Virus genome (UHGV): UHGV-1613795
DNA: 11,447 nucleotides
Strand: one strand, 5' to 3'
DNA from: a virus
Positions 6,001-11,447 of this stretch are shown piece by piece (within the stretch, counting starts at the first letter, position 1; every line of letters begins with the position of its first letter). Position numbers: made by a program.

Positions 6001-9000
6001 TCTGCTGTTACCCACTTGCGGAATTTGTGTGGGACTGAACCTTTATTGACTGCATCGCGGCAGCGCAGAACCAATGTATACATACCTGATTCGCTCACAA
6101 TGCTTAGATTCTGCTCACCACCAAGGGTGTAACTTAAAGTTACTCCCTTTTCATCGTCATCAAGTGCAGTAAGCGCCTTGCGTGAGTTAGTCAAAGCTAA
6201 AGCATCACAAACATCTTTAGCTACAAACCACGGCTCGCCGCACTTGTTAATGACGCGAATTTCACTGTCGCCAAATTTGAAGATGGTGAAATCGTTTTGT
6301 GCCTTTGCTATACTTTTCATGTCAATATTTCCCGATCAGATTTGTTGATGTAGAAGCCTCGCCAGTTCCCGCTGTCGGGGCTTCGTTATTTTTAGAGAGC
6401 ATTCCGCATTTTCTCCCGGTACTTCAACCACCAAGCAAGTCCCTGAACCAACACTGAGTTTTCTGACATCCCCTCTTCCTTGGCGATGCGTTTCACCTCC
6501 TCCTTAAAACGGTACGGATACCGAAGAGTTGTCTTCACTTCATTCTTTTCCATTGATCACTCCTTTTACGTAATGGCATTATGCCTTGAAAGCAATATGC
6601 CATCATTGAATATAAATAGCAATATGCCATCATTGTTTTTTTTGAGGTGATGTTATGGCTGAAAAGCAGGTTAAAGATTACGAAAAGTTTGTTGTGCGTT
6701 TCCCTGACGGGATGAGGGACGCGATTGCGGAGAGAGCCAAACGAAACGGGCGCTCTATGAACTCAGAGATTGTGCAGATACTGGAAGATGCCTTGAATGC
6801 AGAAAATACTCTTGGGGAAATAGCAGACAAAATCAACAGCGTCTCGGTTCCGTTAAATGTTGATGCGCTAGTTCAACTTCAAGCCCAAGTGATCGCCATG
6901 CAAAAAGAAATACAGGAAAAGTTCAGAGAGCAGAACGAAAAGTTGAGAGAACTGCTAAACAAAAAACCCACCTGACGGTGGGTTTTCATTTTTACCGTCC
7001 GACTTCAGTCAACAGGCACAAACAGAGAAAACGTTACAGGTGACTAAGGCATTGCACTGGAAAATGCCGCGTTTGTTGACGCCCGGCTAACTTGCTGATT
7101 GACGCTTCTGGTAAGAGCATCAACTGTTGTCGGGTTACTGTTAACAACTACCGTGCCAATAGTTGTACTGCTGCTACGGCTGTTGTCAATTTTTGATGTT
7201 GTCTGGCTTGGTGTTGAGGCGATGCGTTGCTGCTGCTGATAGTAAGCCAGCGTCTCGTTTTCTTTTGCATTAAGAGCGGCGCGAATCTTTGGTACATATT
7301 CTCGCGTTTCTTTCGGCAGGGTGTTCCAGTATTTGGATGATGGTGAATCAAACCCGGTACTGGATATATATTTTAACTTTTTGTCTACATTACCCATCCC
7401 CCAGTTGTAAGCCATCAGCGCATGGTTAACATTGCCTTTATAGTGCTTTAGCAAATCCCTCATGAACCTTTCAGCAGCAGCGCGAGATTTCACCTCATCA
7501 AGGCGCTCATCAATCCCATCCCCGACCTTTAACCCGTACGCTATGGCAGTATCCTTCATGAACTGATACGGACCAACAGCACCTTTCGGACTATAAAGTT
7601 TTTTACCACCACTCGATTCCACCTCACGAATGGCGTCAAGGAGAGAATCCATGCTTACTGGCTTTACTCCGTCAGGGAGAGGGATATCTGGCTGAATGTT
7701 ATTGCCATAAATCTCATCTCCTCTACGCCCAAAATCAGTATCAAAACCCATGCTGCGCATGGTATCTCCAAGTTCACGTTTAGAGTAATCAAACGATCCT
7801 TTAGCAGCCCCCTCAATGTTTTCCCTGTCATTGTAGAGATACAAACCATATGCTATTAACCCTGCTAACCATGGAGGAAGGGCGCCGCCTGTAAGTTTGC
7901 TTCCTACATATGCTGCTGCCAATAGTTTCAGAGCCTCTTCCGCACCACCAACTGCCTTTGTGAATTGCTTCGTCATATTCCCGGCGTCATTGAAAAAGCC
8001 AATGATGTCGCCATGATGTTTCTCAATCCAGGAACCAAAAGCCTTCATCCCGTCAATAACGTCTGGAGCGAATGCCATGGCTAAATTTTGCTTTAATCGG
8101 GAAAACTCTGAATCAAGTTGCCCAAGGGTGGCAGCAACCTTCTCCTGCTCTTTTATCCACCTGTTCAGTTGAAATTTCTGCTTTGTCGAAATAGTCCTGC
8201 TGGAACGACACGGTGATGTGTGCTTGCAGGGAAAGAGTTAACGTGTAACGCTCCTGCCACTGACTCTCGGCGTTGATCATCGGCGCCTGAATGGCAGGAG
8301 ATGAGTAAAGCGGTGCAAGCCGTGCATCAATAGCCTTGATGATGTCGTAGCCATATCCACTGGTGAATGTTGTTTCCAGTGCAATAGCTCTATCCCCTGC
8401 CCCCTGACCATAGATATCTACCTGAATATCAGCCTGGCGAACTTCCGTATATCCCATGGTGCTTGTGTCCGGAGAGCCGGTATCTTGTTTAAGCTCTCTC
8501 GTAGTGGATAGTCTGGTGAATCGCAAAGGAGTCAGGATACAGAACTGATCTTTGGGCATTGGTACACGGTTAGCCTGAGCCTGCAGGCATTTACCAGCGA
8601 TAGGTTCTATGTAGCCAGCAAGTACATCGATAATATTATCGACAGTGAAATCATTCATGGGCTTACCTGCAATACAGCAACCAGTCGGCACCAGTCAGGC
8701 CACAACTCTATTGGCTCAACAACAAGCCATTGTTCCCCGTTAATCACGAAGATATCTCCGCCCTGCTCCAGTTCTCGCTGAACACTGAAGTAATTACCAT
8801 TGACGTAAATCACTTTTGCCAGCCCCTGAATATTCAGTCCATCGACGTGTTGCATGTCGCCGCGACTGATTGGCTGTAGTTGAATGGTAACGTTCTGGTC
8901 AGGGAGATAAGACGGAATCGGCTTGCGACCGGGGCCGATAGTTTCACCTGCATACTTTTTCAGGATTGCCGGGATGTTGGGGTTAATGCTTGTGATCGCG

Positions 9001-11447
9001 TTATTGGCTATCTGTCGAAGATTCAATTTCACCTACCTCATAATCAACAGCCCTTAACATGTCCCCGGTCCATATGAGAGGCTTGTTGTTGCTCATATCA
9101 ACATCAACCTTTTTCACCGGACCGAAATAGCCCGGACCACCAAAAACATCTTCTCTGGCCTTCACTACATCCCACTTAGTCATTTCCGCCCTGTTATTAG
9201 GGAATCTACTTCTTAGAAGTACTGTTACCGGGCTTAATGGCGGCTCTTGAATAGTTCGAATGGATTCCTGAATGTCTGCTTTTATGATCTCGCCGATAAG
9301 ATTCAGAACAGTATCCGTATCTCCGTCATGCGATTTCATGAGCTTTTCGACCTTTTCTGACCACTCTTCAGATTTAGAAGCTATAGCATTCCTGAAGAAT
9401 GGCCTTGGCGGACTTCCACTTGCCGGGTTACCAAATTCGTTAGATGCTGCAACCATTGGCATAGAAGTACCATCCGGATAGGTGGCATCTTCAAGAAACC
9501 CGACCTTCAATTGCTTTGAGGACAACTCACTACCAACTGAATCAAGGAACTCCATCACCTTATCCATCAGTACCTCCGGTAATACCCATACGGGTAATTT
9601 GATGGAGAATGCCCGCTTATATACTGGAAGGTGCGAAACGGCGCCGTAGCATTCCAGTAATCAGCCCCGTACTTTGTTTGCATGTACCATGCTGAATTTG
9701 CTGTTCCCCCTGGCATATCGGCATGAACGCTAACTGAACCCTCTGAAGCACTGTCGATTCTTCCAACCAATCCGGATGGAGACTGCCCATTCGCTCCTGA
9801 ATACAAACAGGCGATATGGGCAACCAGCATATTCAGCAGCATTGAGCGTACAGCCAAATCCGACACACGACTTGAGTCTGTGTTATCGAGATAAATGGTT
9901 GCTTGCGTGAAATACTGCTGAAGAAGTGCGTCGTCGACAGATGATAATTCAGGATAACTGCATGTAAAGCGCCTGGATATCGTCATACACCGCCTGACCA
10001 TCTTTGGTTGCCCAGGTAGTTCCGCTGCCAGTACCCGTTGCGCCCGGGGTGATTGATGCCGGAAGGTTAGGGTCATTCAGAATGCCGTAGTTCTTCAGGC
10101 CAGCAACGCCGAAGAAGTAGGACTTGTTCTGAAACTTATTCAGGGTCAGCGCAGAAGCAGTATTCAGTTGTTGTGCCCATGCAATGCGGCCTTCACCGTA
10201 ACGGTCAAGTTCCAGCTCCCCCCACTGAGTAATGGTCTGGTACAGATAGGACTCACGAGCAACCCAGTTGACGTTTGCATTTACCTGCCCATTATTGTTG
10301 TAGTCACCATAACTGGAAACCTGACCCGTTGATTCCACAACCGGGAATTGTGCGGTCATGGTGGTCCAGTCTCCCTTCTTCGTTTCCCCCAGAATTTCCA
10401 CCGCTTTCATCGGAGTGACAAGGATGCGAATCAGTTCCGGGTCAACGTAATTAGTGAAGTACCATGGAATGCCAGAGTTACTGGTTGTTACCAGTGAAGG
10501 CTGAGAGTCCATTGCATAGGAATAGCTATTAGCAACAGCATCCGTCAGATAGGCTTTGGCTTCCGGAAGGATTACACCGTAATCTCGCTCAGCCATAGCT
10601 TTATGTTGTAAAAATTCTGCGTTATTCATGTATTAGCTCCAGGTGCCCATCTGAATCAATTCGCCAGCCTCGCCAGCACTGCCAACAACAAATTTTGTTT
10701 CAACGTAATCCGAGATTGACGCCCCGGCATCGCCAGCGGTAATGGTTCCATCTGACAGTTTGGCGAAAATCTTCTGCCCTACGGTTGCCGCACCGGCAGT
10801 TTTCACCCAGTAGTCGCCAGCAGTCATCAATGTCATCTGAACTCCAGGCTGAATAGTCATAGATGATTCACCAAGCCATGTGGTGACAGACGCCTGCCCT
10901 TCCCGATGAACGAAGCCGGCAGGAGCACCGGTTCCAGTGTTATTGACAACACCATTGCTTACCCATGCAAAGCGACCAACAACAACCCCATTTGCACCGG
11001 CAACAAGAGCGCCCTCACCTGCAAGAAGACTTGCTTTAGGGTTAGCCGAAGCGAAATCCCCTTCAACTCCCGGCGCCTGTTGCTGATTAATTACACTTTG
11101 AAAGCCACTCATTTCTTAGCTCCGTTTCAGTTTAGTTGCGCCAGGAAATGCCTTGGCGAAAGAATTGGTTGCAGCAGAATCCATCCCCATACCATGAGAT
11201 GGTTTGCGAACTACCGCTTTCTGGCTGATAGCAAATTCAACCATCGATTTAAGTGCTGAAGGATGAACGCCTTTATGTTCGGCACCGATTGAATCAAGAG
11301 CAAAGCGATAAATAGACTCTGCGGAATCCATGGCGACCAGACTCACATCACCAACCAAAGCACGAACGCATTCTCGAGCCTCATTGGCTTGACGGATATG
11401 GATTTAATCAGGTTGCCGCTTGCGTGGCGTTTAAATCGATGAGGTAC

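What the first reader, a model, noticed from the sequence alone, without database searches (positions are those of the whole stretch)
7044..9567. No ORF of tape-measure or sheath size between neck-type genes and baseplate genes
Seen in sequence: the largest ORFs in the window are 409 aa (J-like), 344 aa (transglycosylase), about 330 aa, and 292 aa (Ant). Between the neck-type genes and the baseplate-side genes the only large gene is the 344-aa transglycosylase. Established knowledge: long-tailed phages need a tape measure protein, usually over 500 aa, and a tube protein (plus sheath if contractile) between neck and baseplate genes. Inference: either the tail is very short with baseplate-type receptor apparatus attached to a podovirus-like neck (a P22-like layout with the tailspike replaced), or tube/tape-measure genes lie outside the window, or this is a rearranged or degraded prophage. 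Each alternative is unusual enough to check.
Basis: inference. Interest (0 to 1): 0.5.

Follow-up and report, generated by a model that had tools for sequence, protein, structure and literature searches.

The report
Deletion-riddled remnant of myovirus prophage
The missing sheath, tube and tape-measure genes were lost in a 3.3-kb deletion from an otherwise ordinary contractile-tailed E. coli prophage that also has broken capsid and packaging genes, so this is a decaying prophage, not a new kind of short-tailed phage.

Summary
No ORF in the window exceeds 409 aa, and only a 344-aa SLT protein and an Arc/Arc/Ant module lie between the neck genes and the baseplate genes.

The cause is ordinary. 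The window is collinear, at 94-99% nucleotide identity, with E. coli prophages that carry the full myovirus set at this spot: neck terminator, DUF3383 sheath (496 aa), E217-gp32-type tube (144 aa), two chaperone ORFs and a 604-aa SLT tape measure.

- **Tail deletion.** A 3264-bp deletion (junction at 8153-8155, 3-bp microhomology) removed all of these. The "344-aa transglycosylase" is residues 261-604 of the tape measure.
- **Capsid deletion.** A 771-bp deletion (junction at 9955/9956) truncates the major capsid protein at residue 225 of 346 and removes the start of the head-to-tail adaptor gene.
- **Packaging deletion.** A deletion of about 5.3 kb (junction at about 11398-11413) removed most of terS, plus terL, portal, head-morphogenesis and most of the DUF2213 gene.

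The same junctions occur, 99.99-100% identical, in an isolate assembly and in independent read-set assemblies, so they are real. Sister contigs carry a further nested deletion.

The closest isolated phages are the Edwardsiella myoviruses GF-2 and Edno5, which have the same gene order. The podovirus-like reading and the "genes outside the window" reading are refuted. Interest is low.

The parts
11414..11447 (-). Remnant of the small terminase gene (about residues 15-25). It is followed at about 11398-11413 by the junction of a deletion of about 5.3 kb that removed the rest of terS, terL, portal, head-morphogenesis and DUF2213 codons 1-315.
   Evidence: In tblastn, terS residues 4-25 lie at L002 4662-4727, next to DUF2213 residue 316 at L002 4744. 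No terL, portal or head-morphogenesis match was found.
11116..11397 (-). C-terminal remnant (residues 316-408 of 408) of the DUF2213 head protein (annotated as head maturation protease in GF-2).
   Evidence: 98% nucleotide identity to L001. Pfam DUF2213 on the full-length relative. GF-2 annotation.
10633..11112 (-). Capsid cement / minor capsid protein, 159 aa, intact.
   Evidence: Pfam XM1_gp53_minor_capsid E=6e-31 and Phage_cement E=9e-23. Zero amino-acid differences from L001 and L012.
9949..10629 (-). Truncated major capsid protein gene: residues 1-225 of 346, then one foreign codon and a stop.
   Evidence: BLASTP 220/225 identical to residues 1-225 of the L001 capsid protein. tblastn finds no match to residues 226-346.
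9955..9956 (.). Junction of the 771-bp deletion (L001 25877-26647). It removed capsid codons 226-346, a 115-aa ORF and the first 14 codons of the DUF4054 gene. Microhomology is 2 bp (TA).
   Evidence: blastn block ends. Three-way junction alignment.
9567..9956 (-). DUF4054 / E217_gp27-type head-to-tail adaptor gene lacking its start and first 14 codons. The 169-aa listed ORF and the 139-aa called ORF start in an alternative frame of the capsid remnant.
   Evidence: Pfam DUF4054 E=4e-17. Coordinates.
9001..9567 (-). 188-aa neck protein (tail completion / Neck1-like), intact.
   Evidence: phrog_222 E=9e-47. 99% nucleotide identity to relatives.
8655..9032 (-). 125-aa collar-like neck protein, intact.
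   Evidence: phrog_1912 E=1e-50. Weak Pfam hit to E217_gp28 collar: 22 bits, below the 27-bit cut-off.
8113..8658 (-). Neck/tail terminator gene. Codons 1-168 are native. The last codons and the stop are replaced by about 12 codons read out of frame from the tape-measure remnant.
   Evidence: Pfam Phage_tail_terminator_9 E=1.7e-22. BLASTP 168/170 identical to the 171-aa L001 protein, diverging at the end.
8153..8155 (.). Junction of the 3264-bp deletion (L001 20809-24072). It removed the end of the terminator gene, the DUF3383 sheath, the tube, two chaperone ORFs and tape-measure codons 1 to about 234. Microhomology is 3 bp (TTA).
   Evidence: Identity of the lost genes.
7044..8155 (-). Tape-measure remnant (about codons 235-604 of 604) with a hydrophobic segment and the SLT lytic transglycosylase domain. 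The 344-aa ORF (7044-8078) starts at internal Met261. No Shine-Dalgarno-like sequence lies in the 22 nt upstream.
   Evidence: BLASTP 343/344 identical to residues 261-604 of the L001 protein. Pfam SLT. phrog_2013 'lytic tail protein' matched only over profile positions 477-655 of 657 in the best stretch. Sequence read.
5442..6975 (.). immI-like module: Arc/Mnt-like 106 aa (6655-6975, +), Arc-like 53 aa (6392-6553, -) and Ant antirepressor 292 aa (5442-6320, -), with terminator-like hairpins at 6963-6986 and 5424-5405. This is a native feature of this phage family at this position, not a sign of P22 ancestry.
   Evidence: Pfam. Same module at the same place in Edwardsiella myovirus GF-2. Terminator scan.
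481..5385 (-). Intact baseplate block: Dit-like 271 aa (4570-5385), Pam3_gp18 plug (4271-4573), hub (3397-4350), spike (2712-3404), gpW-like sheath initiator (2356-2715), Baseplate_J (1130-2359) and DUF2612 wedge (481-1119). The start of the fibre gene lies at 1-478.
   Evidence: All are full length without internal stops when compared with L001 and L012.

Best explanation
The window is part of the late-gene operon of a defective (cryptic) prophage of E. coli. Its ancestor was a temperate, lambdoid-regulated myovirus of the Edwardsiella GF-2/Edno5 (Gofduovirus) type, with an E217/XM1/Pam3-like head, neck, contractile tail and simple baseplate. Sister contigs show it integrated next to ybhC, at what I recall to be the lambda attachment site. 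Three internal deletions are visible in the window, and two were resolved to the base. Those two joined sequences sharing only 2-3 bp, which is typical of illegitimate recombination. The third junction is placed only to within 16 nt. Deletion D3 (3264 bp) removed the sheath, tube, both tail assembly chaperone ORFs and the N-terminal 234 codons of the tape measure. This is why no sheath- or tape-measure-sized ORF is seen, and why a 344-aa 'transglycosylase' sits directly after the neck terminator gene. Deletion D2 (771 bp) truncated the major capsid protein and removed the start of the head-to-tail adaptor gene. Deletion D1 (about 5.3 kb) removed terminase, portal and head-maturation genes. Shown here: the deletions, their exact ends, and their presence in independent assemblies. 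Inferred: the element can make neither capsids nor tails; the surviving ORFs are intact only because decay has proceeded by recent large deletions rather than by point mutation; and late transcription is probably off, because the longer sister contig has no Q gene between ninH and the holin gene.
For: 1. Collinearity. blastn of the window against the intact prophage L001 gives four collinear blocks at 94-99% identity, separated by segments present only in L001. The L001 and L012 annotations list, between the neck terminator and Arc/Ant, a DUF3383 protein (496 aa), a 144-aa protein, 135-aa and 67-aa ORFs and a 604-605-aa SLT protein. Pfam assigns these to DUF3383 (359 bits), E217_Gp32 (62 bits; gp32 is the E217 tail tube, PMC10329688), Phage_TAC_15 (weak) and SLT.
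2. Direction of the events. The deletion ends cut inside ORFs, which makes these deletions in the window lineage rather than insertions in relatives. The SLT ORF equals residues 261-604 of 604 (343/344 identical). The capsid ORF equals residues 1-225 of 346. The terminator gene has a chimeric 3' end. terS residue 25 lies next to DUF2213 residue 316.
3. Junctions. The sequences show 3-bp and 2-bp microhomology.
4. No trace of the missing genes. tblastn finds no sheath, tube, chaperones, tape-measure N-terminus, capsid C-terminus, portal, terL or Q in the window or in the longer contigs L002 and L008-L011.
5. Independent assemblies. The chimeric terminator protein is encoded on five independently assembled contigs: NCBI isolate assembly GCA_002917295.1, three Logan read-set assemblies, and the ENA gut-metagenome scaffold that is the window itself. 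These are 99.99-100% identical across the junctions.
6. Continuing decay. Sister contigs L008-L011 carry the same D1 and D2 deletions plus a nested 1920-bp deletion that removes the neck genes and nearly all of the SLT remnant. In L008 and L010 the cement gene is split and the integrase lies next to an Rz1 fragment.
7. Intact state in complete genomes. All 20 complete E. coli genomes that match this region have the undeleted arrangement, and none of 5426 has either junction.
8. Closest isolated phages. GF-2 and Edno5 have a sheath 73-75% identical at the amino-acid level and the same gene order, including Arc/Arc/Ant between the tape measure and the baseplate. They are myoviruses with 75-82 nm tails by electron microscopy (PMC6372524).
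Against: No experiment here shows that the element is non-inducible or that the remnants are unexpressed. All surviving ORFs are free of frameshifts and nonsense codons, and most differences from relatives are synonymous. This is expected for recent decay but is also what selection for retention would give. The rest of the host genome could not be searched, so a translocated copy of the lost segment, or a co-resident intact relative that could complement the remnant, is not excluded.
Confidence: 0.95

Rival explanations
1. A functional phage with a very short tail, in which a myovirus-type baseplate and fibres are attached directly to the neck.
For: Neck genes and baseplate genes are both present and intact. 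An immI-like Arc/Mnt/Ant module recalls P22.
Against: The capsid gene is truncated at residue 225 of 346. The head-to-tail adaptor gene has lost its start. The terminase, portal and maturation genes are deleted. The terminator gene has a chimeric end, and the SLT ORF is an internal fragment of a tape measure. Relatives at 94-99% identity have the full contractile tail. The immI module is native to the myovirus GF-2 at the same position. No Pfam hit to any P22-type tail-machine protein was found.
Confidence: 0.01
2. The tube, sheath and tape-measure genes are present in the element but lie outside the 11.4-kb window.
For: The window is a whole metagenome scaffold with no flanks of its own.
Against: Contigs of 13.5-16.2 kb with the same junctions extend both ways. 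Upstream are ninB-ninH, holin, endolysin, Rz, KilA-N and the terS remnant. Downstream are the fibre gene and small ORFs. L008 and L010 reach the integrase, and L008 also reaches host ybhC. tblastn with the sheath, tube, chaperones and tape-measure N-terminus finds nothing in them. In every relative these genes sit exactly at the junction.
Confidence: 0.01
3. The junctions are assembly artefacts (collapsed or chimeric metagenome scaffold).
For: The window comes from a short-read metagenome assembly. The exact junction 35-mers were not found in the genome contigs, viral contigs or JGI metagenome collections.
Against: The same junction-spanning protein and DNA occur in an isolate genome assembly and in independently assembled read sets and metagenomes, 99.99-100% identical. 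There are no repeats at the junctions that could mislead an assembler, only 2-3 bp of shared sequence.
Confidence: 0.01
4. The remnant is kept by the host for a function. Examples would be the membrane-anchored SLT fragment, the baseplate-fibre block or the Ant module being used by the cell, or the element being completed by a co-resident relative in the manner of a satellite.
For: All surviving ORFs are intact and differ from relatives mostly by synonymous changes. The baseplate block and the immI module persist through all decay stages seen.
Against: All copies are at least 99.75% identical, so too little time has passed for neutral decay to show. The synonymous bias reflects divergence between functional phages before the deletions. 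The SLT remnant and the neck genes are themselves lost in the commoner, further-deleted variant. The SLT ORF has no evident ribosome-binding site. The Q antiterminator is missing from the longer contig.
Confidence: 0.03

Closest known systems
Intact E. coli prophages of the same family, e.g. in strain FDAARGOS_1288 (NZ_CP070007.1, next to ybhB/bio) and strain KCJ3K291 (NZ_CP054407.1)
   Same: Collinear at 94-99% nucleotide identity over every retained segment. They share the same cement, capsid, neck, SLT, Arc/Arc/Ant, baseplate and fibre genes.
   Different: They retain terS, terL, portal, head-morphogenesis, full DUF2213, a full 346-aa capsid gene, a 115-aa ORF, full DUF4054, the sheath, the tube, two chaperone ORFs and the full 604-aa tape measure. 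The window lacks all of these. Relatives also carry variable cargo in a terminator-flanked slot after ant.
Edwardsiella phages GF-2 and Edno5 (genus Gofduovirus for GF-2), temperate myoviruses
   Same: Identical late-gene order: terS, terL, portal, head morphogenesis, protease, minor head, major head, neck genes, sheath, tube, chaperone, 568-aa lytic tail protein (tape measure), Arc/Arc/Ant, baseplate, fibre, integrase. The sheath is 73-75% identical at the amino-acid level to the E. coli relatives. Electron microscopy shows myovirus morphology (PMC6372524).
   Different: They have a different host genus and are complete, plaque-forming or inducible phages. No near-identical DNA was found outside the ant region in the megablast search.
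Pseudomonas phage E217, Vibrio phage XM1 and cyanophage Pam3 (structurally solved myoviruses with simple baseplates)
   Same: Pfam families built on their proteins match the window's cement protein, head-to-tail adaptor, neck terminator and baseplate plug. The collar protein matches only weakly, below the cut-off. In relatives the tube matches too.
   Different: Only distant sequence similarity. These are virulent or unrelated genomes with a complete sheath, tube and tape measure.
Cryptic prophages of E. coli K-12 such as DLP12, Rac and Qin (from my own knowledge), and 'grounded' prophages in general (PMC6379469, PMC7744054)
   Same: Lambdoid prophages immobilised by large internal deletions that leave scattered, often still intact ORFs.
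   Different: They have a different structural module (siphovirus-type in those cases), and this remnant is much younger: copies are at least 99.75% identical and successive deletion stages are still circulating.

Membership tests
GF-2/E217-type contractile-tail phage late module (functional member) | Tail sheath gene (DUF3383 family) after the neck terminator gene | tested here: not met
   No DUF3383 hit among the window ORFs. tblastn with the relative's sheath finds nothing. The gene is present in relatives.
GF-2/E217-type contractile-tail phage late module (functional member) | Tail tube gene (E217_Gp32 family) and tail assembly chaperone | tested here: not met
   Absent from the window. 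The 271-aa Dit-like protein shows no profile similarity to the tube, though with thin profiles (hhalign probability 0.2%).
GF-2/E217-type contractile-tail phage late module (functional member) | Full-length tape measure (about 570-605 aa with a C-terminal SLT domain) | tested here: not met
   Only about codons 235-604 remain. The ORF starts at internal Met261.
GF-2/E217-type contractile-tail phage late module (functional member) | Neck proteins and simple baseplate (plug, hub, spike, gpW-like, gpJ-like, DUF2612 wedge) | tested here: met
   Pfam and PHROG hits. Full length compared with relatives. The terminator gene has an altered 3' end.
GF-2/E217-type contractile-tail phage late module (descent from it) | Collinearity and high nucleotide identity with complete members | tested here: met
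   Four collinear blocks at 94-99% identity to L001. Same order as GF-2.
P22-like short-tailed phage | P22-type tail machine (gp4/gp10 tail accessory factors, gp26 needle, tailspike) and ejection proteins | tested here: not met
   No such Pfam or PHROG hits. The neck genes hit E217-type families instead.
P22-like short-tailed phage | immI region (arc, mnt, ant) within the late genes | tested here: met
   Arc-family proteins of 53 and 106 aa and an Ant with Bro-N and P22_AR_C domains. The feature is not diagnostic, because the myovirus GF-2 has the same module at the same place.
Defective (cryptic) prophage | Essential virion genes truncated or missing relative to intact close relatives | tested here: met
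   Capsid, adaptor, terminator, tape measure, sheath, tube, terminase and portal.
Defective (cryptic) prophage | Integrated in a host chromosome | tested here: met
   Sister contig L008 runs from ybhJ/ybhC (99% identical to E. coli) through the integrase into the element. The window itself has no host flank.
Defective (cryptic) prophage | Failure to produce infectious particles on induction | not testable with these tools
   Needs induction and electron microscopy or plaque assay of the carrying strain.
R-type tailocin | Sheath, tube and tape measure retained without head genes | tested here: not met
   The sheath and tube are exactly what is missing.

The most novel reading that the evidence does not exclude
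The surviving intact block (baseplate, fibres, Arc/Mnt/Ant and possibly the membrane-anchored SLT fragment) is retained by selection in this E. coli lineage. It might act as an Ant-based trigger or decoy against other lambdoid prophages, or as parts that a co-infecting relative can use, rather than simply awaiting deletion.
Probability: 0.03. Interest if true: 0.35.

Novelty: already known. Interest (0 to 1): 0.08.

Why it matters
It matters mainly as a correction. The apparent "tail-less neck-to-baseplate" architecture is not a new virion design but a deletion scar. The 344-aa "transglycosylase" should be annotated as a tape-measure fragment, and the 226-aa "capsid protein" as a pseudogene. 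A minor positive point is that the window and its sister contigs give a clean series of successive deletion stages of one prophage in near-identical copies. That series could serve as an example of prophage decay by large deletions with 2-3 bp microhomology. Nothing here opens a new question.

Tried and rejected
- **Phage collection, whole window.** Megablast matched only the ant/arc module: 97% to podophages Kapi1 and EC.P3, 89% to Stx phages. This is misleading as a guide to the virion type.
- **Exact 35-mers across both junctions.** No matches in genome contigs (two scans), viral contigs or JGI metagenome contigs. The source was found instead by exact-protein look-up of the chimeric terminator and the truncated capsid ORFs.
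- **phmmer against PDB sequences.** The 271-aa Dit-like protein, the terminator and the relative's tube gave nothing useful.
- **hhalign of the 271-aa protein family against the tube family.** No similarity, but the profiles were very thin (Neff 1.3), so a distant tube-like fold, as for E217 gp36, is not excluded.
- **Rfam scan of the window.** No family reached its gathering score, and no sar-like RNA was detected.
- **First blastn script.** It returned nothing because of the file layout and was redone.
- **Readings considered and rejected.** A podovirus-like short tail, genes outside the window, misassembly and a tailocin. Reasons are given under the rival explanations and the membership test.
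- **Not run.** Structure prediction and the large protein-database searches, because the answer does not depend on them.

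
Full report
**Observation.** The largest ORFs are 409, 344, 329 and 292 aa. All structural genes lie on the minus strand.

Profile searches give the following order, reading in the direction of transcription from the right end of the window:
- a DUF2213 fragment
- a capsid cement protein (XM1_gp53 / E217 gp24 family)
- a 226-aa ORF with a weak major-capsid hit
- a DUF4054 (E217_gp27 head-to-tail adaptor) ORF
- a 188-aa Neck1-like protein
- a 125-aa collar-like protein
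- a neck/tail terminator (PF23961, 80 bits)
- the 344-aa SLT protein
- an Arc/Mnt-like gene (plus strand), an Arc-like gene and Ant
- a Dit-like 271-aa protein, a Pam3_gp18 plug, hub, spike, a gpW-like sheath initiator, Baseplate_J, a DUF2612 wedge and the start of a fibre gene

No sheath, tube or tape-measure-sized ORF exists.

**What it is.** Megablast against complete E. coli genomes found about 20 genomes with a collinear prophage, but their matching interval is 15-18 kb for an 11.2-kb query.

In the best match (L001, strain FDAARGOS_1288) and a second one (L012), the segment between the neck terminator gene and the Arc/Ant module holds:
- a DUF3383 protein of 496 aa
- a 144-aa protein
- 135-aa and 67-aa ORFs
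- a 604-605-aa SLT-domain protein

Pfam assigns these to DUF3383 (359 bits), E217_Gp32 (62 bits), a tail assembly chaperone family (weak) and SLT. RefSeq annotates GF-2's DUF3383-family orthologue as the tail sheath. In the E217 cryo-EM structure gp31 is the sheath and gp32 the tube (PMC10329688). This is the conventional sheath, tube, chaperone and tape-measure set.

**The deletions.** blastn of the window against L001 gives four collinear blocks with three breaks.

| Break (window) | Missing L001 segment | Size | What was lost |
|---|---|---|---|
| 8153-8155 | 20809-24072 | 3264 bp | last codons of the terminator gene, sheath, tube, both chaperone ORFs, tape-measure codons 1 to about 234 |
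| 9955/9956 | 25877-26647 | 771 bp | capsid codons 226-346, a 115-aa ORF, the first 14 codons of the DUF4054 gene |
| 5402-5423 | an extra 850 bp in L001 | n/a | a cargo slot (see below), not a loss of essential genes |

Protein comparisons confirm the truncations:
- The 344-aa SLT ORF is 343/344 identical to residues 261-604 of the 604-aa protein.
- The terminator protein is identical through residue 168 and then reads into foreign sequence.
- The 226-aa ORF equals capsid residues 1-225 of 346.

The junction alignments show 3 bp (TTA) and 2 bp (TA) of shared sequence, as expected for illegitimate recombination. At 5402-5423, L001 has an extra 850 bp flanked by two copies of a 22-bp terminator hairpin. 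L012 has different cargo there.

A third deletion lies at the right edge of the window. tblastn places terS residues 4-25 immediately before DUF2213 residue 316. About 5.3 kb holding the rest of terS, terL, portal, head-morphogenesis and most of DUF2213 is therefore gone. The same tblastn finds no trace of the sheath, tube, chaperones, tape-measure N-terminus, capsid C-terminus, portal, terL or the relatives' Q gene in the window or in the longer sister contigs.

**Is it real?** Exact look-up of the chimeric terminator protein identified the window as ENA gut-metagenome scaffold ZELL14-1_SAMEA2467017_METAG-scaffold_3858 (100% identical in reverse orientation). The look-up found the same protein on four other contigs: an NCBI isolate assembly (GCA_002917295.1, 16.2 kb) and three Logan read-set assemblies. 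All are 99.99-100% identical to one another across the junctions. This excludes misassembly.

The 16.2-kb contig shows the flanks: ninB to ninH, holin, endolysin, Rz, KilA-N and the terS remnant upstream, and the fibre gene downstream. No Q gene lies between ninH and the holin gene. The missing tail genes are therefore not just outside the window.

The truncated capsid ORF is more widespread, occurring in 41 index blocks. Most of those contigs (L008-L011) carry an additional nested 1920-bp deletion that removes the neck genes and all but the last 22 codons of the SLT remnant. In L008 and L010 the cement gene is split and the integrase lies next to an Rz1 fragment. L008 runs into ybhC/ybhJ at 99% identity to E. 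coli. I recall from general knowledge that the lambda attachment site lies between ybhC and ybhB. The window is one intermediate stage in the stepwise decay of a single prophage in one E. coli lineage.

None of 5426 complete E. coli genomes has either junction, and all that match have the undeleted form.

**State of the survivors.** Every retained gene or gene segment is full length relative to L001 and L012 and has no internal stop. Most nucleotide differences are synonymous. For example, the SLT remnant has 16 nucleotide differences and 1 amino-acid difference, and the cement gene has 11 and 0. The decayed copies differ from each other by at most 0.25%. This pattern therefore reflects divergence among functional phages before the deletions. 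It says only that decay is recent and proceeds by large deletions.

The SLT ORF starts at an internal methionine with no Shine-Dalgarno-like sequence upstream. Its expression is doubtful, but this was not tested.

**Comparison with known phages.** The closest isolated phages are the Edwardsiella phages Edno5 and GF-2. tblastn with the relatives' sheath gives 73-75% amino-acid identity. GF-2 has exactly the same late-gene order, including an Arc/Arc/Ant module between its 568-aa lytic tail protein and the baseplate genes. Both are myoviruses with 75-82 nm tails (PMC6372524). From general knowledge, tail length scales with tape-measure length at about 0.15 nm per residue, which gives about 85-90 nm for 570-600 aa, in rough agreement.

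Its DNA is also shared with E. coli podophages and Stx phages, which shows module exchange rather than shared virion type.

Large deletions that immobilise prophages are a well-described route of prophage decay (PMC6379469, PMC7744054).

**Verdict.** The absence is real and fully explained. The window is a defective derivative of a known kind of temperate myovirus. The "transglycosylase" is a tape-measure fragment and the capsid ORF is a pseudogene. Interest is low. The only residual novel reading, that the surviving block is retained for a host function, has no positive support.

Noticed in passing
window 5442-6975; L013 (GF-2) 14482-15878: An immI-like module (two Arc-family genes and ant) sits between the tape-measure and baseplate genes. 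It is conserved at that position in the Edwardsiella myovirus GF-2. The E. coli version is 97% identical at the DNA level to podophages Kapi1 and EC.P3 and 89% to many Stx phages, so the module moves between phages with different tail types.
   Followed up: partly
window 5402-5423 (hairpin 5405-5424, minus strand): A 22-bp terminator-like hairpin (AAAAACCCAGCCGAAGCTGGGT) just after ant marks a cargo slot. L001 has two copies flanking 850 bp (a 73-aa ORF and a pseudogene). L012 has a different 729-bp ORF there. The window has one copy and no cargo.
   Followed up: partly
L008-L011 (e.g. L009 7228-7229, equal to L002 7107/9028): The commoner sister variants carry a further nested 1920-bp deletion that removes the end of the 188-aa neck gene, the collar and terminator genes and nearly all of the SLT remnant. 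L008 and L010 also have a split cement gene and an integrase next to an Rz1 fragment. Together these form a series of decay stages in copies at least 99.75% identical.
   Followed up: yes
L002 1064-1862: In the 16-kb contig with the window's junctions, ninG is followed by a 35-aa ninH fragment and then the holin region. No Q antiterminator gene is called there, and tblastn with the Q of L012 finds nothing. The late operon has probably lost its activator as well.
   Followed up: partly
window 1-197: The distal part of the fibre gene (which runs off the left end of the window) has no match in L001, and the DUF2612 wedge gene is only 77-86% identical to relatives. This is the usual variable receptor-binding end.
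   Followed up: no
L012 29664-30164, 23129-24780 and 39107-39604: The intact relative L012 carries extra cargo absent from the window and from L001: an HNH endonuclease gene between the collar and terminator genes, a P63C-domain gene plus a small ORF between the tape measure and arc, and another HNH gene before terS.
   Followed up: no
Exact junction 35-mers were absent from the genome contigs, viral contigs and JGI metagenome collections, and from all 5426 complete E. coli genomes. Yet the truncated capsid ORF is indexed in 41 blocks of the protein-position collection. The carrying lineage seems common in human gut metagenomes but unrepresented among finished genomes.
   Followed up: partly
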